A stretch of DNA of 55,671 bases, from NCBI GenBank assembly GCA_012841305.1, contig DUVA01000048.1, forward strand, positions 1 to 55,671, written 5' to 3'. Within the stretch, counting starts at the first letter, position 1. Each line of letters opens with the position of its first letter. The DNA comes from Bacillota bacterium (GTDB taxonomy: Bacteria > Bacillota > SHA-98 > UBA4971). This document shows, in pieces, positions 3,031 through 52,579 of the stretch. The translations under genes were made by a program, and so were the position numbers. The notes under the pieces were generated by a model that was not told the origin of the DNA, made no database searches, and was given only the letters and a program-made list of their open reading frames with translations.

Positions 3031-4512
3031 GTGTCTGGAACTGGAAAGGCTATTAAAGTTGCCTTGGTAGTCCTGGTAACCTTGCTGGCAGGTATTATCA
3101 TATACGGTGCTGTGGTATTCAACCGGCCGGAACTTATGCCCCCAGGGCCATATCATCCTCGAGCATTGGTGTCGCAGTTTAGGGGGTACCGTGTCCACCC
3201 CTGGGTGAAAATCGATCCGACTAAGCAATATACATTGAAGATATGGAGCACTCGTTGGCCTATGTTTCGGGACGGCTACGGATATGACGATCTTATCGAA
3301 GAAGTAATTGACAAATTTCAGGCTGATTACCGGAATGTAGATGTTGAATATGTGCTTTTACCGTTAGATGAAGTCGGAAGGGCAATAGCTGAGGCGGTTG
3401 AAAACGCAACTCCTCCTAACATATGCATAGCTCCGTTCGATCCATCCCTTGTTGACAGTGGATTAGTCGTGCCTATCAACATGTTTATGTGTGACGAACC
3501 AAGAGACGATATTAAGGCTACCCCGGCTACAGACTTCGAACTCTCTTCTTTACAGGCTGTATCCGCAGGCAATCGCCTGTGGGCATGGCCTTCATGGATA
3601 GCAGTGAAATCTTGGGCAGGAAATGCAGCGATCCTGAGAGAGGTGGGCATTGATGTTGAGCGAGTCATGCTTTACGGATGGTCGTATGAAGATATCTTGA
3701 CAATGATAGAGACTCTAAGGGCGCGGGAAGCCGGAGTGCCGGAGCAATACATGACATATGGTCTTGTCCTGGATACAACAGCTACTCATGTCCTTGACAC
3801 ACTTATGGAGGCGACCGGACGAGGGCTTGTGCTATCAGAGGATGGCGACCTTATGTGGCAAGGAGAGGCCATAAGATCCAGCTTGTCTTTTCTTCAGGAT
3901 GTTAACGCAATGAATGGCTTTCCCGAGCCGATCCACATGATGACTGAGAGAATGCTCGAGCTTTTTTGGACAGGTAGGGCAGCTGTGATAGGGCCGGTAG
4001 GCCCTGGTTTTCTAAGACATGTCCGTGAAAGGCAGGATAGGATAACCGCAGGTGGTGTGTTCTCCGGAAAGGAAACGGTCGAGCCTGTACTTCTGCCTGT
4101 GCCTCATCCTACAGGAGGCATGAGCTCTCCATGTATCACTGTGCATGCAGCTGCGGTATTGACATATCCGGGCACAGGCGGGGAAGACACTGCATATCTG
4201 GCTGTCAGGCTTTCGGAAGCCCTGGCCAGAAAAGAGGCCTTGTGGCTTGCAGGCGAGTTGCCTGTGGTGCCTGCCAGAACCAAAGACCGTCAACATGGGT
4301 TTGATCTGGCCACCCGGCCTGACGGCGCCAGCCGGCGTTTTCTTCTGGGCGCCGCGTCATCCGGCCGGATGTACCGCAACCTATCTTCTGAGATGAAGGA
4401 AAAAGAGAAGCTTTTGCGAGAACAAGTAATCAGTCCCATGATGGATCAGTTTTGGAGAGGGGCTTTGAGCCCTGATGAGTTTAAACAACGCCTGCATGAT
4501 GCTGAGAGGTGA
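3031..4512 (+). CDS. Membrane-anchored extracellular solute-binding protein (ABC sugar-type SBP-like)
   Basis: N-terminal TM; 'IDKFQADYRNVDVEY', 'GNRLWAWP', 'LFWTGRAAV' resemble SBP family 1; RBS AGGAGG before GTG 3031. Confidence 0.65.
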   Translation: MSGTGKAIKVALVVLVTLLAGIIIYGAVVFNRPELMPPGPYHPRALVSQFRGYRVHPWVKIDPTKQYTLKIWSTRWPMFRDGYGYDDLIEEVIDKFQADYRNVDVEYVLLPLDEVGRAIAEAVENATPPNICIAPFDPSLVDSGLVVPINMFMCDEPRDDIKATPATDFELSSLQAVSAGNRLWAWPSWIAVKSWAGNAAILREVGIDVERVMLYGWSYEDILTMIETLRAREAGVPEQYMTYGLVLDTTATHVLDTLMEATGRGLVLSEDGDLMWQGEAIRSSLSFLQDVNAMNGFPEPIHMMTERMLELFWTGRAAVIGPVGPGFLRHVRERQDRITAGGVFSGKETVEPVLLPVPHPTGGMSSPCITVHAAAVLTYPGTGGEDTAYLAVRLSEALARKEALWLAGELPVVPARTKDRQHGFDLATRPDGASRRFLLGAASSGRMYRNLSSEMKEKEKLLREQVISPMMDQFWRGALSPDEFKQRLHDAER

Positions 4513-4928
4513 TCGAATTTCGCACACCTAAACCCTGATCTGTGCTCGAAAATAGTACACGTCCTTTGTGAAGACCCCTGCGGTGTCCGGTTTTCGATCA
4601 CGGATTCCGAAAACGTGCTCGAAAATAGCGCACGGTTCTCCAAACTTGTGTTCGAATTTCGATCAGGCACCGTTAGAAATCGCTTAATATGTAGCGTCGT
4701 TCGGGTTTAGTGATCCAAAATCGAACACCAAACCCGGAGGGTGTGCTCGAAAATAGGACACGGCTTCCGGAGAATCACCGATTTTCAGGTGCCCTCCGGC
4801 TTATTCGTGAAAGTGTGTTCGAAAATAGCACACGGCCGTCTACACCGGTGCTCGAATTTCAATCAGGCACCATCAAAAGTCGCTCACTATGTAGAGTTAT
4901 TTGGGTTTGGTGTTCGATAATCGAGCAC
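4509..4928. repeat. Array of ten 19-bp imperfect palindromes (consensus GTGTTCGA-N3-TCGAACAC / GTGCTCGAAAATAGTACAC)
   Basis: Units start at 4509, 4542, 4583, 4615, 4648, 4710, 4743, 4815, 4848, 4910; internal 200-bp-offset duplication (4615-4728 vs 4815-4928). Confidence 0.92.
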
Positions 4929-5041
4929 GTCACTGAGACATGCTGTGAAATATCATATACACAGAATTATTCACACTCCGGACATGCAGTCGAATTCATT
5001 TATATACCGAACTCATTGGCGGATCGATTGCATCGGCCTAC

Positions 5042-5216
5042 TGGGCGAGCCAGTCGCTCACACTCCCCAGTGAGGCCCCAAAATTCGCCGGAATGGCTCT
5101 CCGGAAGAGGCAAGCGATAGCCGGAGGGACACCAAATCCGCCGAAGTGGCTCGGGGAGGGCCACTCAGCGATCGGCCGGCAATCAGATTCGCCTGGGTGG
5201 CTCTCAGGAAGAGCCA
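5042..5216. repeat. Four 19-bp hairpins at an exact 52-bp period (TGGCTCT-N5-AGAGCCA type)
   Basis: TGGGCGAGCCAGTCGCTCA 5042, TGGCTCTCCGGAAGAGGCA 5094, GTGGCTCGGGGAGGGCCAC 5146, TGGCTCTCAGGAAGAGCCA 5198; last three preceded by similar AxATxCGCC. Confidence 0.75.
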
Positions 5217-5388
5217 TGCTCGACGAAGAGACCCTGTAAGGGGCCCCTCCCTATATGCTTTTCATAGATGGACAAAGCTCCCATCCAATCTGACGGCTAT
5301 AACCAGAGTGCCAGCTGGAACGCATATCCAGGGATAAGGGCGTTTGCGGAATTCGTGCAATGTACCGGCAGTAATGCATCGGCAGAGG

Positions 5389-5417
5389 TTGACAGTTGAG
5401 GTATGATATGTTAAAAC
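5389..5417 (+). promoter_or_regulatory. SigA-type promoter upstream of yabE-like gene
   Basis: TTGACA-N17-TAAAAC with TG before -10. Confidence 0.5.
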
Positions 5418-5557
5418 CTATCCTACGAGACAAAACACGAATTAGGATATGTCAACCGTAACACCTTTATCCAGCTTTGAATAAATTAGGTGACTACATG
5501 CCGATAATGATGTATAGTAGAGAACATCTGGTATAGGATTCCAGTTCCGGCTCTAAA

Positions 5558-5584
5558 GAAGGAGTTTAGGATTTTTGGCCGAAT
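5558..5584 (+). promoter_or_regulatory. SigH-type promoter
   Basis: GAAGGAGTT-N11-GCCGAAT matches the RNAGGAWWW-N11/12-RNNGAAT consensus. Confidence 0.55.
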
Positions 5585-5673
5585 AATATGGCCAAAAGAC
5601 CTGGTGCCGGATGAGTGCCGGAATTGATATCAAGAAAAGCAGGGTTATTATACACTGCAAGGAGGATGGGATC

Positions 5674-6705
5674 ATGACGTCCAGCCCCTGTTATAGGCAG
5701 GAGCGAGCGTCGGTATTTGTCGAACGCAGAAGAGAAATCGCTCTTGTTTCATGTTGCGTGGTGCTCTTAGTGACTGGGCTTGCAGGAGCAGCGCGGGAAA
5801 TAAGAATAATTGTTGATAATGAGGTTATAGCGGTTGCCGCGGCCCCTGCTCTTAGGGTGGGAGATGTCCTGAAACAGGCCGGGGTGGAATTACAAGACGG
5901 CGATAAAGTGACACCTCAAATATCAGAGCGTGTACGTGGGAGAGGTGTCATCACTGTTACCCGTGCAGTTCCTGTAGAGCTTACAGTAGACGGCTCGAAA
6001 GTTGGGCTCCGTTCAACAGGTCCGATGGTTAAACATGTTCTGGCTGAGTCCGGAATCCTGCTGAGGCCTGAGGACAAGGTCAGTCCGGGAATGGAAGCCG
6101 GACTTACTCCCGGTATGAACATCAAAGTGACTCGAGTGACATCTGAGGTGGTCGTGCGACAGGTCCGTATCCCGTATCGCACTGAGGAAAGACCTGATTC
6201 AGGTATGGATCGCGGTGAATCTAAGGTTATCAAGCAGGGAATCGAAGGCCTTCGTGAAGAGGAAGTTCGTGTGACCTATGAGGATGGCAGAGTCGTCAAT
6301 GAGACTGTGCTGTCCAGCAGAGTATTGCGGGAAGCAGTCTCAAGAGTGGTGAGAGTAGGCACTCGCAATCCAATCAGAACCTTGCTTACTTCAAGAGGTA
6401 CCTTTAGGTACCGGGAAGTCAAAACCATGACAGCCACTGCTTATGAGCCGGGCCCTACCAGTTGCGGAAAGTGGGCGGACGGCTATACAGCTATCGGCCT
6501 GAAGGCCGTCCCCGGCATTGCTGCCGTAGATCCAAAGGTCATACCTCTTCGCACTAAGCTGTATGTGGAGGGTTATGGACCTGCAATCGCAGGTGATGTG
6601 GGAGGCGCTATCAAAGGCAACAGAATCGACTTGCTCTTTGAGACTGTAGAGGAGGCACTACGGTACGGAAGACGGAAGGTGAAAGTTTATATTCTGGAGC
6701 CATGA
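5674..6705 (+). CDS. yabE: YabE-like protein (DUF348 repeats, G5 domain, 3D domain)
   Basis: DUF348-type repeats, G5 (GESKVIKQGIEG...VVRVGT), 3D (MTATAY...AAVDPKVIPL...DVGGAIKGNRIDL); sits before rsmA. Confidence 0.9.
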   Translation: MTSSPCYRQERASVFVERRREIALVSCCVVLLVTGLAGAAREIRIIVDNEVIAVAAAPALRVGDVLKQAGVELQDGDKVTPQISERVRGRGVITVTRAVPVELTVDGSKVGLRSTGPMVKHVLAESGILLRPEDKVSPGMEAGLTPGMNIKVTRVTSEVVVRQVRIPYRTEERPDSGMDRGESKVIKQGIEGLREEEVRVTYEDGRVVNETVLSSRVLREAVSRVVRVGTRNPIRTLLTSRGTFRYREVKTMTATAYEPGPTSCGKWADGYTAIGLKAVPGIAAVDPKVIPLRTKLYVEGYGPAIAGDVGGAIKGNRIDLLFETVEEALRYGRRKVKVYILEP

Positions 6706-7607
6706 AAAAGCAAATAACGAATATGAGTAAAGAATCTAAAATTCGGCCGAGGAAACACCTCGGCCAGAATTTTCTTATCGACCGCTCCATTTTGGAAGTC
6801 ATTGTTAATGCTGCCAAGTTAACCAAGGATGATTTGGTTTTAGAGATTGGTGCAGGCACCGGGACGCTGACTGAGGCGCTTTCAAGGGACGCCGGTCATG
6901 TCGTTGCTGTTGAAATAGATGAGAGATTGGTTTCCCTGCTTCGACAAAAGTTCTTTCAATATCCCGATGTAGAGATTGTAAAAGGGGACTTTCTGCAGCT
7001 AAACTTGACAGAGCTAACCGCTTCTAGTACACTGATTTCAGAGAAATCTAAAGTGGTTGCCAATTTGCCTTACTATATTACGTCTCCTATTATTTTGGAA
7101 TTATTTCGTCATGCCGAGCTTTTCGAACGATTGGTGGTTCTGGTTCAGAAGGAAGTCGCAGAGCGAATTGTCGCAGCTCCGGGCTCCAAGAGGTACGGAG
7201 CATTTTCCGTAGCTGTGCAGTATCACGCGGATCCGGAGATTATGGCAATCGTGCCTCCTGAGGCGTTTTGGCCTCAACCCAAAGTGGACTCTGCTGTGGT
7301 CAAGATGATGATTCGCGAAGCCCCCCGGGTAAAAACAGTTGATGAGGGAATCTTCTTTGCGGTAGTCAGAGGCGGTTTTGCAAAAAGGCGAAAGACAATT
7401 CTGAGAGCGCTTTCCATGGCGGGAAAGACCTATCCGGAGCTTGCGTCCGTCAAGGAGGATAGCATAAGGAGGATCCTTGCCGAGGTTGGCGTGGATTCAG
7501 AGAGAAGAGCTGAGACTCTATCATTAGAGGAGTTCGGCAGAATAGCAGACGCAATCGCATTGGAACGTGGTGAACTTAGTCAGGGTGAGAAACATGATGT
7601 TCATTAG
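6702..7607 (+). CDS. rsmA: 16S rRNA dimethyladenosine transferase KsgA/RsmA
   Basis: KHLGQNFL, VLEIGAGTG, VVANLPYYIT, QKEVAERI, PKVDS, RRAETLS. Confidence 0.97.
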   Translation: MKKQITNMSKESKIRPRKHLGQNFLIDRSILEVIVNAAKLTKDDLVLEIGAGTGTLTEALSRDAGHVVAVEIDERLVSLLRQKFFQYPDVEIVKGDFLQLNLTELTASSTLISEKSKVVANLPYYITSPIILELFRHAELFERLVVLVQKEVAERIVAAPGSKRYGAFSVAVQYHADPEIMAIVPPEAFWPQPKVDSAVVKMMIREAPRVKTVDEGIFFAVVRGGFAKRRKTILRALSMAGKTYPELASVKEDSIRRILAEVGVDSERRAETLSLEEFGRIADAIALERGELSQGEKHDVH

Positions 7608-8064
7608 TCCCTCAAAGGGAAAAATGAGTTTCGACGAGGCTTTTAAGGATATCGTCGGCTATATGCAGGAAATGCCCGGCATTCCGTACAGGCTGATTAT
7701 CGGCACTGATTCTCAGTTGCGAGAGGATGCTTGTTTTGTTACTGCCATAGTCATTCACAGAGTGGGTAAAGGCGGACGCTATTACTATACCAAGGAAAAC
7801 GAAAGAATGGGTCGCAGTTTGAAGCAGAGGATCTTCTTTGAGGCTGCAAAAAGCCTGGGAATCGCCAGCAGGCTTGCTGAGAAGCTTGCTCAAAACGGAT
7901 ACGGGGATTTAAATGTTGAAATCCATCTGGATATCGGTCAGAACGGAGAGACGAAAGATCTTATCAGAGAGATTGTCGGTATGGTAACAGGCACCGGATT
8001 TGAAGCTAAGATCAAGCCGGATGCTTATGGAGCAACAAAAGTCGCGGATAAGCACAGTAAATAG
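7594..8064 (+). CDS. RNase H-like YkuK (DUF458) family protein
   Basis: IIGTDSQ, FVTAIVIHR.GKGG, EIHLDIG, IKPDAYGA..VADKHSK. Confidence 0.88.
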   Translation: MMFISPSKGKMSFDEAFKDIVGYMQEMPGIPYRLIIGTDSQLREDACFVTAIVIHRVGKGGRYYYTKENERMGRSLKQRIFFEAAKSLGIASRLAEKLAQNGYGDLNVEIHLDIGQNGETKDLIREIVGMVTGTGFEAKIKPDAYGATKVADKHSK

Positions 8065-8181
8065 ACGGCCATTGACACTCCCCTTTACGGCTTGTTCTTG
8101 CCGTCCGGCGAATGCCGGTATGTAATCCCTCATTGCGTATTCAAGGAAACAGAGCTCCTCTTTAGTAGCAATCGTTTTTTG

Positions 8182-8292
8182 CTGCATGATTTTCCGCCAC
8201 CTTATGCGAGGCGATAGTCTGCGTGGTCGAAAACAGACCGCTTATCGGCTCTTTACTGCAGAAAACCCAAAAGGTGGTTGAGAATCGACCAT
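8182..8292. repeat. Mini-array of GTGGTCGA-N3-TCGACCAC-type palindromes
   Basis: CTGCATGATTTTCCGCCAC 8182 (degenerate), GTGGTCGAAAACAGACCGC 8223, GTGGTTGAGAATCGACCAT 8274. Confidence 0.6.
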
Positions 8293-8421
8293 GTTCGTGT
8301 TAACCGGCGTGATCCCAGGCGGGGACTATTTGGCGCTGCTCTTTAGTCGGCTCAAGCTTGATCTTAACTGAGATCTGCACTGTTTACCCTCTCTCGGAAG
8401 TCTTTTGCCTTGCGATTTGCG

Positions 8422-8458
8422 GCATGCCTTCCTTAGATTAGGAGGGCGTGTTCTTTAT
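8422..8458 (+). terminator. Intrinsic terminator
   Basis: GCATGCCTTCCT/AGGAGGGCGTGT stem followed by T-rich tail. Confidence 0.5.
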
Positions 8459-8470
8459 TATAAAGAGCCT

Positions 8471-8499
8471 TCACCTTTTCTCGTCCACCTCATAGTATG
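8471..8499 (+). promoter_or_regulatory. SigK-like promoter for yabG
   Basis: TCAC-N16-CATAGTATG; yabG is SigK-dependent in studied spore formers. Confidence 0.45.
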
Positions 8500-8535
8500 T
8501 CATATCATGGACTTGATCCCTTTGGAGGGGAGAGC

Positions 8536-9426
8536 GTGGGCGAGATAAAAATCGGAGATAAGGTGGCGCGGAGATCTTACGGGTCAGACGTAATCTTCGT
8601 GGTCCTAAAGATAGTTACGGCTCGAGTGAAGGTTGCAAGGGTTCTTCTGCGAGGCTTGAATATGAGGCTCATGGCAGACGCCCCCGTTGATGACCTTGTG
8701 ACTATTCGTAATGAAGAGGTGGAATCATCATTTCAGAATCTTCACCAAGAGACACGGCAACTGGTGGAGAAGGTATTTCTAAGGCGCATGGCAGAGGATT
8801 TCAGCATAGATTATCGAGGGCGTGATGACGCAATTCTGCCTTCGGGCATTGATTATCGTCATTTCCCGGGAAAAGTCCTTCATCTTGACGGGGACGGGGA
8901 CTACCTGAAGCATTGCCTGAAGTACTACCAAGAACTTGGCGTGCCTGCTGTAGGATATCATGTCTCGGAAGAGGCACAGCCGTCGAAGGTTGCAGCACTT
9001 TTCAGAGAGCACCTTCCGGACATTTTGGTAATTACAGGCCATGACGGATTTATCGCGCGTGTAGGCGATAAGCTAAACCTGGACAGCTACAGAACATCAA
9101 GGTACTTTGTGGAAGCAGTAAAGAAGGCCCGACAGGTACAGCCTGACAAGGATTCTCTCGTGATCATTGCCGGGGCATGCCAGTCATATTATGAAGCTTT
9201 GATAGATGCGGGAGCAAATTTCGCGAGCTCCCCGCAAAGAATATTCATTCATTGCGCTGACCCGCTACTTGTCGCGGAGAAGATATCCCATACCCCATTT
9301 GATACCATTGTTCATGTGAACCAGGTAGCTGAAAACATAATCAGCGGGCTGAACGGAATCGGCGGCATAGAAACCAGAGGGAAGTTGCGTCTCAGCTTAC
9401 CGAATACAGTGTCAAATCACAAGTGA
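8536..9426 (+). CDS. yabG: Sporulation peptidase YabG
   Basis: GDKVARRSYGSD, PGKVLHLDGD..YL, PDILVITGHD, AGACQS.YE, GANFASSP. Confidence 0.96.
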   Translation: MGEIKIGDKVARRSYGSDVIFVVLKIVTARVKVARVLLRGLNMRLMADAPVDDLVTIRNEEVESSFQNLHQETRQLVEKVFLRRMAEDFSIDYRGRDDAILPSGIDYRHFPGKVLHLDGDGDYLKHCLKYYQELGVPAVGYHVSEEAQPSKVAALFREHLPDILVITGHDGFIARVGDKLNLDSYRTSRYFVEAVKKARQVQPDKDSLVIIAGACQSYYEALIDAGANFASSPQRIFIHCADPLLVAEKISHTPFDTIVHVNQVAENIISGLNGIGGIETRGKLRLSLPNTVSNHK

Positions 9427-14123: not shown

Positions 14124-16202
14124 ATGTTCATAGGGCTATGGCAATCAGGCGTAATTGTGGCTGCTATTGCCCTTGTCCTCCTGGGACTTTTGCTGATACC
14201 GCGTCGCAGGCGCATGGTTGAAACACTTCTTGGCGTCGATTATCCTGATGATGACAATGGCCTAGAACTATCATTAGGGCACAGCAATCCTCAGCCGGCA
14301 TTAGCACAACATATAGGTGAAGTAGCTTTTGCGGTTGACTGCGACCTTTTGGAGGACGGCGGAGGGGCGGAGGTCAACCAAGAGACAGTATGCTCCGAAG
14401 CTGTCCAGGCCAAAAGGAATCTCATGCTGCGTGCCCCTGGTTCGTGGCATGCCGGAAATGCCACACCTGCACCCACATGCACTTCTGAACCGGCGATCAC
14501 AATCACATTCCAACCTTCTTCAAGCGAAATTCACATGGATCTGCCCAGCGAAATAACTCTCAGGGCGGAATCTTTCGATAGTCTAGGCCAGATTATGTGC
14601 TGTCAGAGTGAATCTAACTTTTTGCCGGAAGCTCCCTGTACTTCGTCAGAAGATCATGACGACGCCAGGTTAGGGTTTCTGTATCCTATCTCTCATGATC
14701 GGGAAGAGGATGCAGAGGAACAAGAACATGTACCTGTCCAACATCAGTCTCAGGCGACAGAGGGCCCAAGGGAGGCGCGACCCGTATTTCTTAATCGTTT
14801 GATGGAAAGCCCATTCAGGCTTAGGGAAGGAGGCTCGCATATGCTGAATATCGAGAAGTACAGTCAGGTTCAAACAGCGTGTCTTAAGGTGGAAAGGGTT
14901 GTAGGCCATGGTTCAAAGCAGGTCCTTTTGGAGGAGACAAACACTATACCCGGGATCAAGATAGTGGAAATCATTCCTACGCTCATCAATATTCGTTCCA
15001 TAGTAAAGGACGGCAAAGTCATTATCCAAGGCACTGTCCACAAGCAGATATTCTACATTGGTACTGACGAACTGGAACATCACCTTGCAGAGGATATGGA
15101 TTTCAGTGAGCTTGTTGATATCGAGCCGTTGAATCCTATGTGTCCGGTGCGAGAAGGCATGAATCAGCAGGACTTCTCTGTAATTGAGAACAGCGTGTTT
15201 GAGTTTGACCCGGATACCGGCGCTTTGACGCAGAAGATCATCCTTAGATTGTGTGTGAAGGTAACTGAAACAGAACAACTTGAGGTGGGGGTTGGTTGTC
15301 AGGGCACGCTGATCAAGGCTGCTGTTGTAGTCGGTGAAGGCACAAAGCAGAAGTTCATTGAGGAGACGAAAGTCATTCCTGCAATTAAGGTCATTGAAAT
15401 CGTCCCACGAATATCTCAGATCAGGCACACAGTCAAGAACGGAAAAGTCCTGGTCCAAGGTATCGTTCATAAGCAGATATTCTACGTAGGTACAGACGAC
15501 CTAGTTCATCACCTGGCAGAAGACATTCCATTCAGTGATCTTGTGATAGTGCCATACGCATGTGAGGGAATGAACTCTCAAGACCATTCCTTCGTAGATA
15601 ACCTTGTGTTTGAATTCGACCCTGCTACCGGTGCTCTCACTCAAAAGATTATCCTTGCCCTGTCCGTGAAGGTTACGGAGACATGCGGGGTGCCGGTGAT
15701 TGAAGGAACCGCGGGAACGCTTATCAGCGCTAACCAAATCATTGGGATGGGATGCGCCGAGAAGCTGGTTGAGGAGACAAAGACCCTGACAGCCATTAAA
15801 ATCGTAGATATCGATGCCAGGATCAGTGAAATAACGTCCATAGTCAAGAACGGCAAAGTCATAGTGCAAGGGACTGTCCACAAGCAGATATTCTATGTCG
15901 GTACAGACGACCTTGTCCATCATCTTGCAGAGGATCTGCCTTTTAGCGAAATGATAGAGATACCCCCGATAAATCCGGAATTCCCTGTGGAGGAAGGCAT
16001 GGATCAACAGGATCACTCATTTATTGAGAATATCGTATGGGAATTCGACCCTGCCACAGGCGAGCTTACGGAGAAGGTTATCATCGGCATACAGGTAGTA
16101 GTGACGAATCATATTCAAATACCGGTAGTGGTCATTGGCGGCTGTCCCGGCAACGACCTTTGGCCGATCAAGGAGGGTTGTCCAGCCGATACCGTCAAGT
16201 AA
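14124..16202 (+). CDS. DUF3794/SPOCS protein, three repeats, with N-terminal TM and disordered extension; alternative start at 14841
   Basis: Three near-identical KVI.QGTVHKQIFY.GTD.L.HHLAED repeats; RBS before both 14124 and 14841. Confidence 0.85.
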   Translation: MFIGLWQSGVIVAAIALVLLGLLLIPRRRRMVETLLGVDYPDDDNGLELSLGHSNPQPALAQHIGEVAFAVDCDLLEDGGGAEVNQETVCSEAVQAKRNLMLRAPGSWHAGNATPAPTCTSEPAITITFQPSSSEIHMDLPSEITLRAESFDSLGQIMCCQSESNFLPEAPCTSSEDHDDARLGFLYPISHDREEDAEEQEHVPVQHQSQATEGPREARPVFLNRLMESPFRLREGGSHMLNIEKYSQVQTACLKVERVVGHGSKQVLLEETNTIPGIKIVEIIPTLINIRSIVKDGKVIIQGTVHKQIFYIGTDELEHHLAEDMDFSELVDIEPLNPMCPVREGMNQQDFSVIENSVFEFDPDTGALTQKIILRLCVKVTETEQLEVGVGCQGTLIKAAVVVGEGTKQKFIEETKVIPAIKVIEIVPRISQIRHTVKNGKVLVQGIVHKQIFYVGTDDLVHHLAEDIPFSDLVIVPYACEGMNSQDHSFVDNLVFEFDPATGALTQKIILALSVKVTETCGVPVIEGTAGTLISANQIIGMGCAEKLVEETKTLTAIKIVDIDARISEITSIVKNGKVIVQGTVHKQIFYVGTDDLVHHLAEDLPFSEMIEIPPINPEFPVEEGMDQQDHSFIENIVWEFDPATGELTEKVIIGIQVVVTNHIQIPVVVIGGCPGNDLWPIKEGCPADTVK

Positions 16203-25435: not shown

Positions 25436-25456
25436 TAGCCGTTACGCAAAAGTCAC

Positions 25457-25673
25457 CTAAGTAGATCACTATGAGACCGTTGTTCTCTCCCATATTATGT
25501 TAACGCAGCTCGCTTGAATCGCAGAAACTGGTCGCCATCTTGGGCGAAATTGGCAGTTACTGGAGAAGTTCAACGGTCTCCACCACAAGTAATCGCCGGT
25601 TCCAGAAAGTATACGTATCGTGCAGGGCCACCCAAGACCTCGGAAAACGAGAGAAAACTAATGAACTCATACC
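25457..25673. repeat. Dispersed REPIN/MITE-like element, copy 2 (inverted relative to copy 1)
   Basis: Homologous to 2648-2923; inverted repeats 25473-25492 and 25561-25580. Confidence 0.85.
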
Positions 25674-41984: not shown

Positions 41985-42445
41985 GTGTTCGAAAATAGAA
42001 CACGGTTTCTAGAAAATCCCCAGCGACGGCCGAATGACATTCCATATTTTGGAGAATAAGTTGAAAAAGCTTGAATCCCCCGGGCAAGGTGATCGAATTT
42101 CGAACACCCCAACCCTGATCTGTGTTCGAAAATAGCGCACGTCTTTCCTAGAGACCCCTGGGGTGTCCGGTTTTCGATCACGAATTCCGAACTCGTGTTC
42201 GAGAATAGTACACGGTTCTCCGAACCTGTGTTCGGATTTCGAACAGGCGCTGTCAGAAGTCGCTCATTATGTAGAGTCATTTGGGTTTGGTGATCGAAAA
42301 TCGAACACCAAACCCAGAAGGTGTGCTCGAAAATAGTACACTGCTTCCAGAAAATCATTGATTTTCAGGCACCCTCCGGCTTATTTGTGAAAGTGTGCTC
42401 GAAAATAGTACACGCTCTCCAAAAGCATGTTCGAAAATCGAACAC
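41985..42445. repeat. Second copy of the GTGTTCGA-N3-TCGAACAC palindrome array
   Basis: Units at 41985, 42089, 42122, 42163, 42195, 42228, 42290, 42323, 42395, 42427; 42089-42413 aligns ungapped to 4509-4833 (47 mismatches in 325 bp by hand). Confidence 0.93.
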
Positions 42446-42601: not shown

Positions 42602-42673
42602 GATCAGTAATACGGGATCAGTAATATGGGATCTGTAATATGGGATCTGTAATGTGGGATGTCAGTAATGTGG
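42602..42673. repeat. 14-bp tandem repeat x5 (GATCWGTAATRYGG)
   Basis: GATCAGTAATACGG GATCAGTAATATGG GATCTGTAATATGG GATCTGTAATGTGG GATGTCAGTAATGTGG. Confidence 0.9.
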
Positions 42674-42675
42674 GA

Positions 42676-42703
42676 TTGACAAAAGATGAGTGCCGGATAT
42701 AAT
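42676..42703 (+). promoter_or_regulatory. SigA promoter upstream of cupin gene
   Basis: TTGACA-N16-TATAAT. Confidence 0.75.
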
Positions 42704-46158: not shown

Positions 46159-46503
46159 ATGGCACGTGGCTCACGTAGAAGGAATCGCCCGGTTGTCCCT
46201 GAGGCCCTTGCAGCGCTTGATAGGTTTAAGTACGAAATTGCAAACGAACTGAACCTGCCTGGCAATATCATAAACACGGGATACTGGGGGAACTTGCCTT
46301 CAGCTCAATGTGGCGCAGTCGGCGGACAGATGGTTCGCAGGATGATAGAGGCTGCCCAGCGGTCGCTGATAGAAGGCACTATGGCCGGAGTCAAAGCAGG
46401 ATTCCAGGCCGGCCTCACCCAGCAAGGCGTCACCCAGTCCTTCACTCAGACCGGCTATGGAGCGGGGCAGACAGGTTATAATGAACCTATCCAGCCTGTA
46501 TAA
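46159..46503 (+). CDS. Alpha/beta-type SASP with Gln/Gly/Thr-rich tail
   Basis: VPEA..ALD.FKYEIANEL, G.VGGQMVRRMI..AQ. Confidence 0.92.
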   Translation: MARGSRRRNRPVVPEALAALDRFKYEIANELNLPGNIINTGYWGNLPSAQCGAVGGQMVRRMIEAAQRSLIEGTMAGVKAGFQAGLTQQGVTQSFTQTGYGAGQTGYNEPIQPV

Positions 46504-46536
46504 ATCATAGATATACGAGGCAGTAAGCATATGAAG

Positions 46537-46561
46537 CAGGCCGTCTCAAAAGGACGGCCTG
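46537..46561. terminator. Terminator between convergent genes
   Basis: CAGGCCGTC/GACGGCCTG. Confidence 0.65.
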
Positions 46562-46659
46562 TGGTTCCTCCACACATACACATAAGTCCGGAAGCGTTTT
46601 ACGAGAGGGCATAAATCGTGTAATACGTCCCAAATGTATAATACATTCCCAATTCAGTA

Positions 46660-47523
46660 TCAGCAGTAATAAAACTGAAATCCAATGAGTCCCGGACCCA
46701 CGTGGGTGCCGATTATCGGTCCGATTTCTATTGGCTGCGCTCCAATACCGGGGAATTGCTCCTCCAAGGATCTTGCGACTTCATCAGCTTTTTCCCGGTT
46801 ATCAGCATATGCTATGGCAATGTTTGTCGGAAGTCGCTCCCCGCCTCCTTCGGCTATCATGAGATCCGTGATTCTCCTCAAGGCACGCTTCTCAGTTCTG
46901 ACTTGCTCAAGGACTTCAATTCGTCCTTCATCACGCACAAAATGAAGAATAGGTTTGACCTGCAAGAGAGATCCTATCACTGCTTTGGCGCCTGACAGAC
47001 GGCCTCCTTTATGCAGAAACATAAGATCATTGACGACGAAGAGAGTCCTCATAGAGTCCATGACTTCGTGCACGCGGTTTATGATCTCTTCCTTATTATT
47101 ACCTGCTTCAGCCAACGCTACGGCTTCTTTCACGATGAAACCGAGGGCAGGCCCGGTTTGCTTTGAGTCAATAACGACTATGTCAGCGTCCATGTCTTCT
47201 ATCATTCCGGCTGCGGTGGAGGCGGAGTTGACAGTTCCGCTGATGCCGCTTGAAATGTGTATGGAAATAATGGTATTGGCGCCTTCTTCCAAGAGGCGCT
47301 TGTAAGTCCCAAGAAAGTCACCTGATGATGGCTGTGAAGTGGTGGGAAGCTCTTGTACCTTTCTCAATCTGGCATAGAAATCGCGATTAGTGATTTCAAC
47401 ACCTTCTTTGCAGACTTCTGATTCTATGTTAACAAGTAAAGGCACAACGGCAACATTGTGAGCTTCACGCCAGTCATCGGGCAAAGCGGCTGTACTGTCC
47501 GTAACGATTCTAATGGAATTCAT
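46660..47523 (-). CDS. DegV family fatty-acid-binding protein
   Basis: IVTDST, PTTSQPS, ISSGISGT, L.KGGR, IGTHVGPG. Confidence 0.95.
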   Translation of the reverse strand: MNSIRIVTDSTAALPDDWREAHNVAVVPLLVNIESEVCKEGVEITNRDFYARLRKVQELPTTSQPSSGDFLGTYKRLLEEGANTIISIHISSGISGTVNSASTAAGMIEDMDADIVVIDSKQTGPALGFIVKEAVALAEAGNNKEEIINRVHEVMDSMRTLFVVNDLMFLHKGGRLSGAKAVIGSLLQVKPILHFVRDEGRIEVLEQVRTEKRALRRITDLMIAEGGGERLPTNIAIAYADNREKADEVARSLEEQFPGIGAQPIEIGPIIGTHVGPGLIGFQFYYC

Positions 47524-47830
47524 GACATATCCTCCTTTTTGCCCAAAATGCCATTAATTTGCATGTATTCTTTTTGGTACAAAAATATTCTTCGTCATCT
47601 TGCCCTTAAATCCTTCACTTTAAACTTTTCTTCCTATTCAAGAGTATTTTGGAACTTCGTCGGAAAGTCATTACTAGAATTAGCAGGCATGGACGATGCC
47701 AAACTTTCATCAAAACATGAGCCATAGACTCTTAAGAAATCCCGAGAAGGGAGAAAATACAATTGAGATCCACGGGGTATAGTAGTAAAGGACGCACAGC
47801 GGCACAAAAAGTGTGCGAAGGGGGAGTATC

Positions 47831-48025
47831 ATGAAGAATAACGAATGCGGAAAACATCCTCACATGCCTGACAATGCAGAAAGCAGCGTAAAGTGCAAGC
47901 AATGTGGAAACATGGTTAATGTCGGCGATATGTCATCAGAAGGGATGGTATCTTGTCCGGTTTGCGGAGCATCAGTGAGCTCCTGGGACACTTTGAAATC
48001 TGAGGTTTCAAACGAAGATTACTAG
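47831..48025 (+). CDS. Small zinc-ribbon protein (CxxCG...CxxCG, LysW-like spacing)
   Basis: CKQCG-x15-CPVCG; RBS GGGGGAG; acidic C-terminus NEDY. Confidence 0.65.
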   Translation: MKNNECGKHPHMPDNAESSVKCKQCGNMVNVGDMSSEGMVSCPVCGASVSSWDTLKSEVSNEDY

Positions 48026-48047
48026 GTTATCAGTGTATTTAGGGGGC

Positions 48048-49298
48048 TTACATAACAATCTTCAACAGCCAAAATATCGTGCTGGAATCCCATCCCAGAT
48101 CCCATGGGACATGATAACGGTCAGCGGTATGAGAGTTCACTAGCAGGTATAAGCCGGAGTCTGCGCCGACGACTACCGCAAAATGCGCAATCCTGCCGTT
48201 TTCCTCATAGGCAATGAGGTCTCCTCTGTTGAGCGCCCCTATGGCCCCTGCGGGGTGTGCTTCGCTGGTTGTTATTAGGTCAGCATATGTGCCGCGGGCG
48301 AGCCTTTGAGCTCGTCCGCTGCTCAACAAGAAACTAAGCAAACTCGATGCCTGGGCCCAAGCAGACGTCGCTCCCGCGGCGTGTCCGTACGGAGCATACC
48401 TCCAAGCATAAGTCATAGGAAGATTGCCGGCTTCTGCATCACCTAACACTTGGGACGCGAAATTCGTGCAATCACCTCCAAGGCCTGTGTAGTTCTTATA
48501 TGCAGGGTTATACTTGCGGTTATTGCCGCAGCCCCATGCTAACCCACAATACTTGTTTGCATAGGCGACTGCGTTCTCTCTATTATAGAGGTAAGCACGT
48601 TCTTTGGCGTCCGCTTCGTCAGTGGTTCCGGACAGATTTCCCGACGCGTATGGCGATGAATATGCTGAAGCAGGAATGGCTGTAAGCTGTGGGAACATGA
48701 AATCATCCGATGATGTGACATATATCTCAAAGGATGAACCAAGTGCAGTCGCTGAGCTTATGGAGCTTGCATCTACGTCCAAGGGATCTAAATACCAATC
48801 CCGTCTGATGACCCATTCCCCGTCTTTGAATGTAAGCTCCAGCAAGTGTTCGGTACCAATGCCGAAGTAGTCTGGTTCGGACTCAGATACGGATTCATGT
48901 TTGTAGCAGATTCTGACGCTCTCATCCAGCTCGATCCAGGCGGTAGTCCCTTTGAGTTCTATTGAGGTGATTCTAAACTGAACCTCAGTATCGAGAAACC
49001 TGATACTACGGGCAGCGCTCCACGCTTGAAGGTACGCACTCCTTCTGGTTTCATGCTCAAAAGCCCACTGTCCGTAACGGGAATCAAGATCATAATGGGA
49101 CATCAACGTGTCTGTGTCTCCGTTGACAATAGCCTTAGCCCTGCCGGTAAGAAGCATGTCAAGGCGCATGTTAATTACTCTTTCCAGAGATAAAGGTATC
49201 CCTGCAACCGGTCGATGAGGGATACCTTTTAATGTTATCACAATACTGATGACGGCAATTAGGCCCAGTAAAAGTCTTCTTCCATATAACACATACAT
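48048..49298 (-). CDS. Amidase_6 domain protein (YhbB-like)
   Basis: YNRENAVAYA.KY, GGDCTNFASQ, GDLIAY, HFAVV, LVNSHT.DR. Confidence 0.85.
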   Translation of the reverse strand: MYVLYGRRLLLGLIAVISIVITLKGIPHRPVAGIPLSLERVINMRLDMLLTGRAKAIVNGDTDTLMSHYDLDSRYGQWAFEHETRRSAYLQAWSAARSIRFLDTEVQFRITSIELKGTTAWIELDESVRICYKHESVSESEPDYFGIGTEHLLELTFKDGEWVIRRDWYLDPLDVDASSISSATALGSSFEIYVTSSDDFMFPQLTAIPASAYSSPYASGNLSGTTDEADAKERAYLYNRENAVAYANKYCGLAWGCGNNRKYNPAYKNYTGLGGDCTNFASQVLGDAEAGNLPMTYAWRYAPYGHAAGATSAWAQASSLLSFLLSSGRAQRLARGTYADLITTSEAHPAGAIGALNRGDLIAYEENGRIAHFAVVVGADSGLYLLVNSHTADRYHVPWDLGWDSSTIFWLLKIVM

Positions 49299-49319
49299 TT
49301 CAATTCCCTTTACTTGCCC

Positions 49320-49505
49320 TTACTTGCTTGGCATCCCACGGTTAAGTGCGCTTATAATTAATCTTGCTTGTTGCGGACGGAGTTTCACAACACCTAATTC
49401 CGCCTTAACTACAAGTTCAAAAGGGATTCCTGTGCGTATCGAAAGCTCTTTGGCGCTTATGCCCGCCTTTTGCCTGAGCTTCAATAAAGTGGTCATGTTG
49501 CCCAT
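49320..49505 (-). CDS. Small XRE-family helix-turn-helix protein
   Basis: LRQKAGISAKELS..TGI...V.K.E.G pattern; RBS GGGAGAGG. Confidence 0.7.
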   Translation of the reverse strand: MGNMTTLLKLRQKAGISAKELSIRTGIPFELVVKAELGVVKLRPQQARLIISALNRGMPSK

Positions 49506-49615
49506 CCTCTCCCTACATGGCTTATACTACCAGTATAGTGAGGATGTCCCTTTTTTATGCCAAGTCAAATATATAAAGGTTTTGATCTCTTTCCATATGC
49601 GGCAAGCCGAAGCTC

Positions 49616-50107
49616 CTAACCGGCTGAAGGCACTTCCTCCGCCAGTTCTCTTACGCGGGTGTCTGCCAGTCTGTCACCGAGTCTCTTCCCTTCCGGATCC
49701 GTAAACACCAACGCAATTTCAATAATGCCGATGATGGTAGTTACGCCTGTCAACAGAGACCAACTGGACCATGCCAGTGCTCGATAAGACAGCAACGAAA
49801 TTACGAATGACAGAAGCTGTCCTATTGCCAGAGGCCAGTTACGTCTGGCGGACAATTGAATATCCACATCACTGCCACCCGGTCCTACAACCTCGAGACG
49901 CATAACCCTTTTACCAATACTTTGGTTCTTCCACGCCGGATCCTTCAGTAGTTCAAACATTATGGCGTCCTTAACTAGGATATACGCGCCCCCAATCAGA
50001 GACCCTATTCCGCGAAACGGGATAATACTTGACACCACCGCTGCTATAACTGTATCAATTAGTGCCGCAATAAGTCGTTTGCCCAAATCAGCCTTTCCCT
50101 TTCCCAA
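49616..50107 (-). CDS. RDD family membrane protein
   Basis: KRLIAALID, QSIGKRVM.L.V, RRN, GKRLGD.LA.T.V. Confidence 0.9.
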   Translation of the reverse strand: MGKGKADLGKRLIAALIDTVIAAVVSSIIPFRGIGSLIGGAYILVKDAIMFELLKDPAWKNQSIGKRVMRLEVVGPGGSDVDIQLSARRNWPLAIGQLLSFVISLLSYRALAWSSWSLLTGVTTIIGIIEIALVFTDPEGKRLGDRLADTRVRELAEEVPSAG

Positions 50108-50145
50108 GAGAACTCACCCCTTTTTGTCGTCATACTAACGACATT

Positions 50146-50172
50146 ATTCACCTTTCAACAGATTTATCCTTC
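50146..50172 (-). promoter_or_regulatory. SigH-type promoter for the RDD gene
   Basis: Minus strand GAAGGATAA-N11-GGTGAAT. Confidence 0.55.
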
Positions 50173-50401
50173 CAGAAACTTCATGTGAGTCCGAATATTT
50201 CCTCAACAAAACACTTATGCGAAGTATCGCAGAGCGACATGTCGAGAAGCGACTTATGGCAAAACGAAGCCACCCGGAGACAGGTATGACGTTTGCCATA
50301 TTCAGTGGTAATCTCCTGACATATGCGGGGTTTAGCAGGTATTTGCATTTCAGCATTGAATTTATTCTATTGACAAGTAATGGACTCTGCACGATTATTG
50401 T

Positions 50402-51736
50402 GTGGGCTTATTCTGCGCGACTATTCTCTGCGATTACAAGGGGGCGCATATTGAGGCAGTGAAACAGTTCGTCATCAGGATGATTAAAGGCTTTGAGCAG
50501 GCAAGCTCAAAATATCATATACCCTTTTTGATGGCTGTCTTATTAATAGCCGGAGGGGCTTTATGTATCATGGCCGGAACCGATGTGCATCCGGAGGCTG
50601 CAATGAATGAAGAGTTCCGAGGGCTGTGGGTTGTACGCACAAGCATGCAATCTCAAGAATCAATTGAGCAGGTGATCGAGAGAGCTGTAGAAAGCAATTT
50701 CAACGCCATCTTAGTCCAGGTCAATGGGCGCGGGGAAGCGTATTATGAAAGTGACATCGTGCCCAGGATGCCGGATGTGCCTGAAGGATTTGATCCTCTG
50801 GCGTTTTGCATCCAAAAGGCCCATGCTGCAGGCATAGAGGTGCACGCATGGATCAATGCTTTTACTGTAGGTGTGTTAGGGCGTAGTGATTATCAAGAGA
50901 AGCATGTGCTTAGTCAGCATCCTGAGTGGTCACTGGTAGATCTCGACCAGGTTTCGACCTTTGATTATACCCCGGGGACGGCCAGGGGTGAACTTGTTTC
51001 AGTGATGCTGGATCCTGCAATAGAGGGCGTAAAGGAGTACGTCCGTGAGGTGTTCATGGAGGTAGTCACTAACTACGATGTGGACGGTGTCCATTTCGAC
51101 TACATTAGATATCCCGGTAAGAAGTATGGGTATGGCCAAGAGGCTAGGGATGGGTTCAGAGAACTCACAGGCTATGATCCGCTGGACCTTGTAAAGCAGC
51201 CGGAGGCCTTGCGCGGCACAATCATAGATGGGAACGACCTCTTTGAGAGTCTCAGCGATAGGTGGGACGAGTTTCGCTGTGAGCAAGTGACTGAGGTGGT
51301 GCGGAGAGTCTATCAAGATGTTAAGCGGGCAAAGCCTGATGTAGTAGTGTCTTGTGCTGTGTTCCCCGATGCGGATCAGTCTCGTGCCTTGAGAATGCAG
51401 GATTGGCGGAGCTGGATTCAAGAAGGCATTGTAGACTTCGTAGTGCCAATGGCGTATACGCCGGATACCCAGAAGTTCATAGGCCATATCAGAACGGCTG
51501 TGGAAACGCCGCCCGGCGGAAAGGCTTTGGCCGGTGTCGGGGTTTATCTTATGCTGGACGATCCCAAGGACTGCATAGAAAAGATTGATGCTGCAAGGGA
51601 ACTTGGAACACCTGGGATAGTCCTATTTTCATACGATTCCATCAAGGAAAGGACAGGCTATTGGGAAGCTTTGGCGCGCGGTCCATTCAGTGATCAGGCA
51701 ACGGCCCCGAAAATGATCCGCCAGGCCTCAGACTGA
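50402..51736 (+). CDS. GHL10/DUF187 glycoside hydrolase-like protein (YddW/DigH-like); true start probably 50459-50480
   Basis: EFRGLWV, FDPL..I..AH..GIEVHAW, LDPA, YDVDGVHFDY.RYP, QDW..W...G.VD..PMAY. Confidence 0.88.
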   Translation: MGLFCATILCDYKGAHIEAVKQFVIRMIKGFEQASSKYHIPFLMAVLLIAGGALCIMAGTDVHPEAAMNEEFRGLWVVRTSMQSQESIEQVIERAVESNFNAILVQVNGRGEAYYESDIVPRMPDVPEGFDPLAFCIQKAHAAGIEVHAWINAFTVGVLGRSDYQEKHVLSQHPEWSLVDLDQVSTFDYTPGTARGELVSVMLDPAIEGVKEYVREVFMEVVTNYDVDGVHFDYIRYPGKKYGYGQEARDGFRELTGYDPLDLVKQPEALRGTIIDGNDLFESLSDRWDEFRCEQVTEVVRRVYQDVKRAKPDVVVSCAVFPDADQSRALRMQDWRSWIQEGIVDFVVPMAYTPDTQKFIGHIRTAVETPPGGKALAGVGVYLMLDDPKDCIEKIDAARELGTPGIVLFSYDSIKERTGYWEALARGPFSDQATAPKMIRQASD

Positions 51737-52121
51737 CTAATCGGCGTGTCCTACAGTCTGTCTGATCATGTTCTTCACAGAAGGCAGCTCGCGGTGAACG
51801 ACATTCCATACTGTTCAATTGCCTGAATGCAATCTAGTATGTGGTGAAGGTAGACGGTGTCATCTTCCATAGCTCTACTGACTCCCGCACAATGTTATCT
51901 CGCGCATTTGAGTGTACCGCTTTTTTAGTCATTGTGAACTTACCTGCTTAACAGGGTTTCAAGCTTATCTTTTAGTAAGTGCCTAAGGGCTTCCACATAG
52001 GGTGGTGCCGACTACATAGAATGCTGCCGGCCAGTCATCTACACAGAATTATCTACATTCCAATTTGCACTTCCTTGCAAAACACGTGTGGGAAGTGCAT
52101 GCGTGCCGTCGCTCTGAAGAG

Positions 52122-52574
52122 GTGGTCGATTTCCAACCACTTTTTTCAAGACGTTGCTTCAATTTCTACCACCTAATGGGATTGTTGGAATAAAAAATGC
52201 ATAAGTGATAGGTTCTCGACCACCTCCAACGGCAACGGTGGTTGTTTTTCGACCACATCTTTGGGCTAATGAAGGATTTCAATGCCTCTTTGAGGCGCAG
52301 GTGGAAGGTTTTCTACCACTTTTTTGGAAAAGGTGGCAGTTTTTCGCTCACCTTTTTGAAAAATGTGGTTGATTTTGTATCCACGATCCTTATGTGAAGG
52401 GGTTCTCTGTGATGAGGTGGTCTATATCCTACCACCTTGACGCTTGGGCCTGGTCGATAACCGACCACTAACAAGCCTCGACGTGGTCGATTATCAACCA
52501 CTCAGGCGATCCCTCTCGAAAAAGTGGTAGAAAATCATACAGCAAAAGAGAATTTGTGGTCGTTTTACGACCAC
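52122..52574. repeat. Array of about twelve 19-bp palindromes (consensus GTGGTCGA-N3-TCGACCAC)
   Basis: Units at 52122, 52154, 52205, 52238, 52301, 52333, 52365, 52417, 52450, 52483, 52524, 52556. Confidence 0.88.
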
Positions 52575-52579
52575 ACCGC

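What the first reader, a model, noticed from the sequence alone, without database searches (positions are those of the whole stretch)
4509..52574. Candidate undescribed system: helically phased arrays of 19-bp palindromes in several sequence flavours
Seen in sequence: five intergenic sites (4509-4928, 5042-5216, 8182-8292, 41985-42445, 52122-52574) carry 19-bp dyads. Start-to-start distances are only 32-33, 41, 51-52, 62-63, 72 or 104 bp, about 3, 4, 5, 6, 7 and 10 turns at roughly 10.4-11 bp per turn. No half-turn spacings occur among the units I picked out. Dyad sequence differs between families (GTGTTCGA.., GTGGTCGA.., TGGCTCT..), while length and phasing are kept. Inference: these are platforms for cooperative same-face binding of dimeric proteins, such as a nucleoid-organising, centromere-like or REP/BIME-like mobile scaffold with paralogous readers. 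No candidate reader gene is adjacent, so it would act in trans.
Basis: partly seen in the sequence, partly recalled or inferred. Interest (0 to 1): 0.85.

Follow-up and report, generated by a model that had tools for sequence, protein, structure and literature searches.

The report
Dispersed repeats built on a helical lattice
The five sites are copies of genus-specific, non-coding repeat elements scattered through the genome of an uncultured Bacillota bacterium, and their 19-bp palindromic units sit a whole number of DNA helical turns apart, which points to an unknown protein binding one face of curved DNA.

Summary
They are copies of three dispersed, non-coding mosaic repeat families:
- Family A: 4507-4930 and 41985-42445.
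- Family B: 5042-5216.
- Family C: 52122-52575, plus a truncated copy at 8182-8292.

The draft genome holds 15 near-full A copies and 29 near-full C copies. Together with B and module E they cover about 1.2% of the assembly. A and C were found only in the window's genus. Orthologous loci in congeners are empty, so the elements were inserted.

The helical phasing is real:
- Objectively detected units fit a 10.55-10.6 bp lattice (R about 0.9).
- A unit-free Fourier analysis of AAA/TTT runs peaks at 10.5-10.6 bp (0 of 300 shuffles reach it).
- A congener's family C is only 71% identical yet keeps every spacing, with two 1-nt indels in 451 bp.
- An unrelated-looking array in another family of the same class also has 19-bp GTGG..CCAC units 31-33 bp apart.

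Dyad symmetry is partial and shows no strand bias. No intact Y1/RAYT transposase goes with the elements, and there is no Rfam match.

Best reading (about 0.5): mobile mosaic repeats that work as duplex, curved, same-face platforms for an unidentified trans-acting protein. Rivals are REP-like single-strand hairpins, RNA elements, and function-less tandem-derived repeats.

The parts
4507..4930 (+). Family A repeat, copy 1. It has ten 19-bp units, at 4509, 4542, 4583, 4615, 4648, 4710, 4743, 4815, 4848 and 4910. It contains an internal duplication of about 200 bp. The TGA inside the first unit (4510-4512) supplies the stop codon of ORF 2977-4512.
4931..5041 (+). Linker module that joins family A to family B. 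The same junction recurs on other contigs (C198, C219, C225, C183).
5042..5216 (+). Family B: a tandem module with a period of about 50-55 bp carrying TGGCTC..GAGCCA / GTGGCTC..GGCCAC dyads. It is often found 3' of family A and at contig ends.
5249..5358 (+). Module E: a 110-bp dispersed module found on 19 contigs. It often closes family B or family C arrays on their 3' side.
4507..5457 (+). The whole composite (A + linker + B + E + tail). It is an insertion of about 950 bp relative to five congeners and lies inside the last ~10 codons of ORF 2977-4512.
8182..8292 (-). Truncated family C copy (5' end plus one tail unit; two units 52 bp apart). It lies inside an IS605-like remnant.
8335..8415 (-). 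IS605-like remnant: the 3' end of tnpA and the first ~15 codons of tnpB. It abuts the family C fragment.
41985..42445 (+). Family A repeat, copy 2. It consists of a solo unit at 41985, the 5' module at 42017-42088 that most A copies share, and a body at 42089-42445 that is 85-86% identical to copy 1. It is part of an insertion of about 960 bp relative to G003.
52122..52575 (+). Family C repeat, full copy (about 454 bp). Units sit at 52122, 52205, 52238, 52301, 52417, 52450, 52483 and 52556, with weaker ones between them. It is the most strongly curved stretch predicted in the window.

Best explanation
What is shown. The sites are copies of genus-restricted, non-coding mosaic interspersed repeats: families A, B and C plus shared end modules. 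They have been inserted at different places in different species.

Their building block is a 19-bp imperfect dyad framed GTG(G)...(C)CAC. Units sit 3, 4, 5, 6, 7 or 8 helical turns apart on a 10.5-10.6 bp lattice. In families A and C they carry phased A/T runs, so the 420-460 bp element is predicted to be strongly curved.

What is inferred. The elements act as duplex DNA. An unidentified dimeric protein, encoded elsewhere, binds the dyads on one face at a minimum pitch of three turns (32-33 bp). It oligomerises along the curved DNA or wraps it. The complex serves either the spread of the element or a host architectural role.

Unknown: how the elements move, and what the protein is.
For: Dispersed families:
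- A 300-bp repeat links sites 1 and 4.
- BLAST and nhmmer find 15 near-full family A copies (on 38 contigs) and 29 near-full family C copies (on 42 contigs). With B and E they cover 1.22% of the assembly.

Restricted to the genus:
- Family C occurs in 6 of 7 congeners and family A in 5 of 7. Neither was found in any of the 33 other genomes searched.

Inserted:
- In 5 of 7 congeners the flanks of the site 1/2 composite are contiguous. The other 2 contigs end there.
- Relative to the collinear G003 contig, sites 1/2, 3 and 4 carry about 940, 290 and 960 extra bp.

Lattice:
- R 0.90-0.91 at 10.55-10.6 bp.
- AAA/TTT spectral peak at 10.5-10.6 bp, 0 of 300 shuffles.
- Genome-wide gap classes follow multiples of the lattice period.

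Architecture under constraint:
- G003 copies keep the same gaps, with R 0.91-0.92 at 10.6 bp.
- The G000 and G003 family C consensus sequences are 321/451 identical with only two 1-nt gaps. That ratio matches coding HSPs between the same two genomes, whereas most orthologous intergenic DNA between them does not align at all.

Duplex DNA rather than a single strand:
- Inner-arm complementarity is only 125/215.
- G.T (19) and A.C (15) mismatches are about equal.
- Some mismatches are conserved across all copies.
- Orientation is not tied to neighbouring genes: ++ 8, -- 6, +- 4, -+ 1.

Curvature:
- Family C is the most curved of 5525 windows of 420 bp (end-to-end/contour 0.34; median 0.88). Family A copy 1 is near the first percentile.

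Same frame in a second lineage:
- G018 (another family of the same class) has a dispersed array (43 matches) of GTGG..CCAC 19-mers 31-33 bp apart, with a different inner sequence.
Against: - No binding protein was identified, and none is encoded next to any copy examined.
- The mobilising enzyme is unknown. No target-site duplication was seen at the one cleanly mapped insertion.
- The G018 arrays have a near-constant 32-bp period and no A-tract periodicity. There the pattern cannot be told apart from a plain tandem repeat, and curvature is not universal.
- Family B shows no significant AAA/TTT periodicity or predicted curvature.
- The GTGG head matches the GT[AG]G guide of REP hairpins (passages of PMC6006769).
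- Metatranscriptome contigs from 4 runs contain the element core, so an RNA role is not excluded.
- The spacing sets are few: about two or three independent families.
Confidence: 0.5

Rival explanations
1. REP/BIME-type elements. Each dyad works as a single-strand DNA hairpin with a GTGG guide, and is cut and joined by a Y1 HUH transposase (RAYT) encoded elsewhere or recently lost. The lattice would be incidental.
For: - The 5' GTGG/GTG head, intergenic clusters, several families per genome and mosaic structure fit the REP/BIME description (passages of PMC6006769).
- There is no TSD at the mapped insertion.
- IS remnants lie next to copies, as is known for REPs as IS targets. The REP-as-IS-target point is recalled.
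Against: - PF01797 hits: G000 has only a broken IS605 without dyads nearby. G003, with 20 matches to the family C query (most full length; the 14 aligned look over 90% alike by eye), has none. The element-free G001 has two intact genes. G018 has only a frameshifted IS200-type gene.
- Stems are weak and carry conserved mismatches, and there is no G.T over A.C bias.
- Units do not form inverted doublets.
- A 10.6-bp lattice kept across species has no role in single-strand chemistry.
Confidence: 0.2
2. Function-less mobile or recombination-spread DNA. The lattice would be a by-product of the elements' origin by tandem duplication of units of about 32 bp (or 10-11 bp). The conserved architecture would reflect recent bursts from a few master copies, not selection.
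For: - TRF reports a 32-bp period inside family C.
- The G018 arrays are almost pure 31-33 bp tandems.
- Tails vary in unit number.
- Copies within a species are more alike than copies between species.
- Ends are mosaic and variable.
Against: - Gaps of 41, 51-52, 62-63, 72 and 83-84 bp are not multiples of 32, yet all fall on one 10.5-10.6 bp lattice.
- There are 130 substitutions but only two 1-nt indels between species consensus sequences.
- A/T runs in the spacers are phased as well.
Confidence: 0.2
3. Transcribed RNA elements: multi-hairpin RNAs, or terminator/attenuator arrays acting on neighbouring genes.
For: - Single-copy folds are far more stable than shuffles: z -8.9 on the plus strand and -7.6 on the minus strand.
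- Several hairpin-plus-T-run motifs are present.
- RNA-library contigs from 4 runs (4 studies) cover 52136-52383, while parts of the flanking DNA have no cover.
Against: - Both strands fold equally well, as any palindrome-rich DNA would.
- The alignment consensus fold is weak (-36.5 and -34 kcal/mol, against -170 for one copy).
- There is no orientation preference relative to genes, no wobble-pair strand bias and no Rfam match.
- RNA contigs cannot show strand. A 29-copy element is also over-represented in any contaminating DNA.
Confidence: 0.1

Closest known systems
REP / BIME (REPIN) elements of proteobacteria with their RAYT (TnpA-REP) transposase
   Same: Short palindromic units with a GT[AG]G-type head. 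They are intergenic, occur as several families per genome, are clustered into mosaic arrays, and are species- or genus-specific. (Features from passages of PMC6006769.)
   Different: - No cognate Y1 gene.
- Units are 19 bp with weak stems.
- There are no inverted doublets.
- Arrays are 330-460 bp conserved as a whole, with a helical lattice and predicted curvature.
BOX composite repeats of Streptococcus (boxA - boxB(n) - boxC)
   Same: Modular build: a 5' module, a variable number of tandem middle units and a 3' module. Host is a Firmicute. Size is up to about 640 bp. They cluster with other repeats. (Passages of PMC3049150.)
   Different: - BOX elements have terminal inverted repeats and make target-site duplications (same paper). 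Neither was seen here.
- No sequence relationship was tested.
- No helical lattice was seen in the passages read.
Phased operator arrays wrapped by oligomeric regulators (Lrp/AsnC-type sites about three turns apart; ParR/parC-type centromeres). Recalled, not from a call.
   Same: Imperfect dyads with A/T-rich centres, a minimum pitch of about 32-33 bp, same-face placement, and bent or wrapped DNA.
   Different: Those are single loci next to the regulated or partitioned genes. Here there are dozens of mobile copies with no adjacent protein gene, and no binding has been shown.
Intrinsically bent DNA with A-tracts in helical phase (general phenomenon; abstracts of PMC3940949 and PMC3431218 seen in the listing)
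   Same: AAA/TTT runs recur every 10.5-10.6 bp over about 40 turns.
   Different: Here the signal is carried by a discrete, dispersed repeat family rather than being a diffuse genome-wide bias.

Membership tests
REP/RAYT system (REPtron) | 5' GT[AG]G guide tetranucleotide at the foot of the hairpin | tested here: met
   Family C, family B and the G018 units start GTGG. Family A units start GTG[ACT]. The feature is taken from PMC6006769 passages.
REP/RAYT system (REPtron) | A cognate tnpA-REP (Y1_Tnp) gene, usually flanked by the REPs | tested here: not met
   PF01797 results: G000 has only a broken IS605 with no dyads nearby. G003 has none. Only 3 of 8 genus genomes have a hit, and the intact genes are in the element-free G001. 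The genomes are 79-96% complete, so absence is not proven.
REP/RAYT system (REPtron) | Stable stem-loop, and REP doublets in inverted orientation (BIME/REPIN) | tested here: not met
   Inner-arm pairing is 58%. Mismatches are conserved. G.T 19 against A.C 15. Units run in one series on a lattice, not as inverted pairs.
MITE (non-autonomous DDE element) | Terminal inverted repeats matching a resident IS, and a target-site duplication | tested here: not met
   No TSD at the mapped insertion. Ends are variable and mosaic. Neighbouring IS605 and UPF0236/ISLre2-type genes lack the dyads at their other copies, and their presence does not track the elements. Terminal dyads are self-complementary, so a TIR cannot be strictly excluded.
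BOX-type composite repeat | 5' module, variable tandem middle modules, 3' module | tested here: met
   Family A has a 5' module. Family B and the family C tails vary in unit number. Module E closes arrays. Homology to BOX itself was not tested.
CRISPR array | Identical repeats separated by unique spacers | tested here: not met
   The 13-60 bp stretches between units are conserved between copies, and the units differ from each other.
Any Rfam RNA family | Covariance-model match at gathering score | tested here: not met
   0 matches in the whole window.
Plasmid/phage centromere or iteron array | Repeat array next to the gene of its binding protein on one replicon | tested here: not met
   Dozens of chromosomal copies have unrelated neighbours. 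There was no related array in viral contigs: 1 unrelated hit and 0 hits.

The most novel reading that the evidence does not exclude
A class of uncultured, spore-forming Bacillota from anaerobic digesters carries dozens of mobile, curved, 400-bp 'positioning elements'. An oligomerising protein reads GTGG-N11-CCAC dyads every three helical turns and wraps the DNA. This would be a sequence-programmed nucleoprotein particle that is both selfish DNA and a nucleoid or topology organiser, with lineage-specific inner-dyad flavours co-evolving with paralogous readers.
Probability: 0.3. Interest if true: 0.85.

Novelty: new variant of a known kind. Interest (0 to 1): 0.6.

Why it matters
Interspersed repeats such as REP, BIME and BOX are usually explained by single-strand hairpins or RNA folds. 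Here, whole 330-460 bp elements keep a 10.6-bp lattice and their length through about 29% sequence divergence, and they are predicted to be strongly bent. That points to selection on duplex geometry.

If a protein partner exists, it would give a handle on chromosome architecture, or on a new way of mobilising DNA, in a widespread but uncultured digester lineage. The elements also break short-read assemblies of these genomes, because many copies lie at contig ends.

Tried and rejected
- Y1/RAYT link: rejected on distribution.
- UPF0236/ISLre2-type transposase as mobiliser: found next to the G018 array. Its homologues elsewhere lack dyads, and the family is missing from G000 and G005, which carry many copies.
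- IS605 link: remnants abut family C at window site 3, at C249 and at G005 C71. The 5' extension seen by eye in roughly 9 of the 24 aligned family C copies looks like a tnpB-start fragment. I read this as adjacency or capture, but it is unresolved.
- Global RNA structure: the consensus fold is weak.
- Promoter and terminator scans: uninformative.
- Restriction-site angle: TCGA is not avoided (O/E 1.03).
- Autonomous longer copies: G003 copies reach about 830 bp with no shared sequence beyond the repeat; no ORF scan was run on them.
- Clean empty site upstream of cggR: the spacers are too diverged to align.
- Viral contigs: 1 unrelated GC-rich hit, then 0 hits.
Its only use was the record title 'MAG: Bacillota bacterium' for contigs whose lengths match G003.
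- The same strict pattern over 201 phylum genomes: it found only G018, but G000 itself scored 0, so the scan is insensitive and says nothing about absence.
- RNA-library contigs: parts of the stretch without cover, and cover over 52136-52383, are only a weak hint of transcription.
- Habitat labels of the runs holding the stretch (manure, landfill, digester, biogas) come. Only 4 RNA runs were laid.
- Literature: three searches. No description of helically phased dispersed dyad arrays appeared in the listings. I read only passages of PMC6006769 and PMC3049150. Supplements are closed and could hold REP catalogues that bear on this.

Full report
WHAT IS THERE

The window is contig C234 of a draft genome of 2.48 Mb in 278 contigs, 89% complete. 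Gene content marks it as a spore-forming Firmicute: yabE-like G5/3D protein, KsgA, YabG protease, CggR. A congener's record is titled only 'MAG: Bacillota bacterium'. Runs that hold the stretch are labelled manure, landfill, digester and biogas metagenomes.

They are not five independent arrays:
- Sites 1 and 4 share a 300-bp repeat at 85% identity.
- BLAST against the genome shows that each site belongs to a dispersed family.

The families are:
- Family A: core of 328 bp, at window 4507-4930 and 41985-42445.
- Family B: tandem units of about 50-55 bp, at 5042-5216.
- Family C: about 454 bp, at 52122-52575. The copy at 8182-8292 keeps only the 5' end and one tail unit.

nhmmer profiles count 15 near-full A copies on 38 contigs and 29 near-full C copies on 42 contigs. 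Together with B and a 110-bp module E (5249-5358) they cover 30,242 bp, or 1.22% of the assembly. Many copies lie at contig ends, so this is a lower bound.

The elements are mosaics:
- Most A copies have an extra 5' module that copy 1 lacks.
- Family C tails vary in unit number.
- A is often followed by a linker, then B, then E.

DISTRIBUTION AND INSERTION

Family C was found in 6 of 7 other species of the genus and family A in 5 of 7. Neither was found in the 33 genomes searched outside the genus. G001 (96% complete) has neither.

At the yabE locus, five congeners (G001, G002, G003, G004, G006) have both flanks contiguous or nearly so. In G004, the base matching window 4482 is followed directly by the base matching 5458. 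The G005 and G007 contigs end there and cannot be judged.

The composite at 4507-5457 is therefore an insertion of about 950 bp. It lies inside the last ~10 codons of ORF 2977-4512, whose stop codon is now the TGA of the first dyad. I saw no target-site duplication.

Against the collinear G003 contig, sites 1/2, 3 and 4 carry about 940, 290 and 960 extra bp. The cggR-upstream loci of 4 congeners hold no units, but the spacers are too diverged for a clean junction.

All near-full family C copies are intergenic. Their orientation relative to flanking ORFs is ++ 8, -- 6, +- 4, -+ 1, with 10 more copies at contig ends (gene calls are my own rough ORF map).

THE LATTICE

With a fixed detection rule, the units in family A (n=10) fit a lattice of 10.55 bp with R 0.91. 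Those in family C (n=8) fit 10.6 bp with R 0.90. Random gaps reach this R at any period from 8 to 14 bp in 0.08-2.3% of trials.

Without picking units at all, the spectrum of AAA/TTT positions peaks at 10.5 bp (A) and 10.6 bp (C), with 0 of 300 shuffles as high. Two gene regions and one ordinary spacer show nothing comparable.

Genome-wide, adjacent units give 431 pairs (81 in a shuffled genome). They fall into classes at 32-33, 41, 51-52, 62-64, 72-74, 83-84, 96, 103-106 and 116-117 bp. These pairs come from related copies.

A wedge model (angles recalled; an A-tract control behaved as expected) ranks family C as the most curved of 5525 windows of 420 bp (0.34 against a median of 0.88). Family A copy 1 is near the first percentile, copy 2 scores 0.62, and family B is not curved.

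CONSERVATION OF ARCHITECTURE

G003 copies match the window copy at only 67-70%. They still show the same gap series (33, 84, 63, 32, 32, 52, 33, 33, 41, 33), R 0.91-0.92 at 10.6 bp, and a stronger AAA/TTT peak.

Consensus against consensus gives 321/451 identical positions with two 1-nt gaps. Between the same two genomes, coding HSPs of similar identity have roughly 20 to 350 mismatches per gap opening, and most orthologous spacers do not align at all. The element therefore holds its length about as tightly as coding DNA does. The caveat is that consensus sequences hide copy-specific indels.

Copies within G003 look mostly over 90% alike by eye in the alignment of 14 copies. Copies within G000 are 75-85% identical to the window copy. 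This pattern fits lineage-specific bursts of spread.

A SECOND LINEAGE

G018 belongs to another family of the same class. It has ten GTGG..CCAC 19-mers 31-33 bp apart. The array is itself dispersed: 43 matches in G018, 2 in G020, and none in G019 or G021.

Its inner arms (AAAG/CTTT-like) differ from the TCGA type of the window's genus, but the frame and pitch are the same. It shows no A-tract periodicity.

DUPLEX OR SINGLE STRAND

I picked frames only by their GTG/CAC ends in four consensus sequences. Inner positions are complementary in 125 of 215 cases (25% expected by chance). The dyad symmetry is therefore real but partial. G.T (19) and A.C (15) mismatches are equal, so neither strand is favoured as a hairpin. 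Some mismatched units are invariant across 24 copies.

Single copies fold well on both strands, but the alignment consensus fold is weak. Rfam gives nothing.

RNA-library contigs from four runs include the conserved core. Contigs show no strand, and a multi-copy element is over-represented in any contaminating DNA.

MOBILISERS

- Y1 transposases do not track the elements.
- UPF0236/ISLre2-type genes do not track them either.
- IS605 remnants touch family C three times. This fits elements that attract, or are captured by, insertion sequences.
- No copy examined carries a gene.

VERDICT

The helical phasing is the interesting part: it is statistically solid, is detected without choosing units, and is kept across species.

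The elements are a new variant of the known kind 'mosaic interspersed repeats'. Their frame resembles REP units and their modular build resembles BOX elements, but they fail the RAYT, inverted-doublet and TIR/TSD tests.

The most likely mechanism (about 0.5) is same-face binding or wrapping by an unidentified trans-acting protein on curved duplex DNA. This step is inferred, not shown.

Noticed in passing
window 8335-8415 (minus strand) and about 8100-8180: Remnant of an IS605-like element. It holds the end of tnpA, the first ~15 codons of tnpB and a later tnpB piece, with the truncated family C copy in between. The same junction occurs in G005 (L044). The only fuller IS605 in G000 (C157:35.7-37.3 kb) is itself broken.
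   Followed up: partly
window 2645-2910 and 25453-25672: Other short dispersed repeat families, unrelated to the dyads. They match the DNA beside the IS605 copy on C157 and dozens of other contigs, so the genome is rich in small interspersed repeats.
   Followed up: no
window 42602-42676 and 52580-52635 (also 52648-52687): 14-15 bp tandem repeats (4-5 copies) of different sequence lie downstream of the family A copy 2 and family C elements.
   Followed up: no
window 4482-4512 with 5458-5484: The insertion replaced the last ~10 codons of the 511-aa ORF 2977-4512, which has no Pfam match. Congeners end this ORF ...VTSLS(S/G)FE*. Here it ends ...HDAER* on a stop supplied by the repeat.
   Followed up: partly
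L189 (G018:C139) 121-1470 and 1500-1800: An intact UPF0236/ISLre2-type transposase gene ends about 30 bp before the first unit of a dyad array in another family of the class. The array boundary coincides with the start of the dispersed repeat.
   Followed up: partly
window 14920-15949: Three repeats of about 190 nt spaced about 420 nt apart (66-71% identical) lie inside ORF 14124-16202. They are probably repeated protein domains.
   Followed up: no
G003 loci L183-L188: Several G003 family C copies extend to about 830 bp. The extension is a further tandem module with a period of about 135-145 bp.
   Followed up: partly
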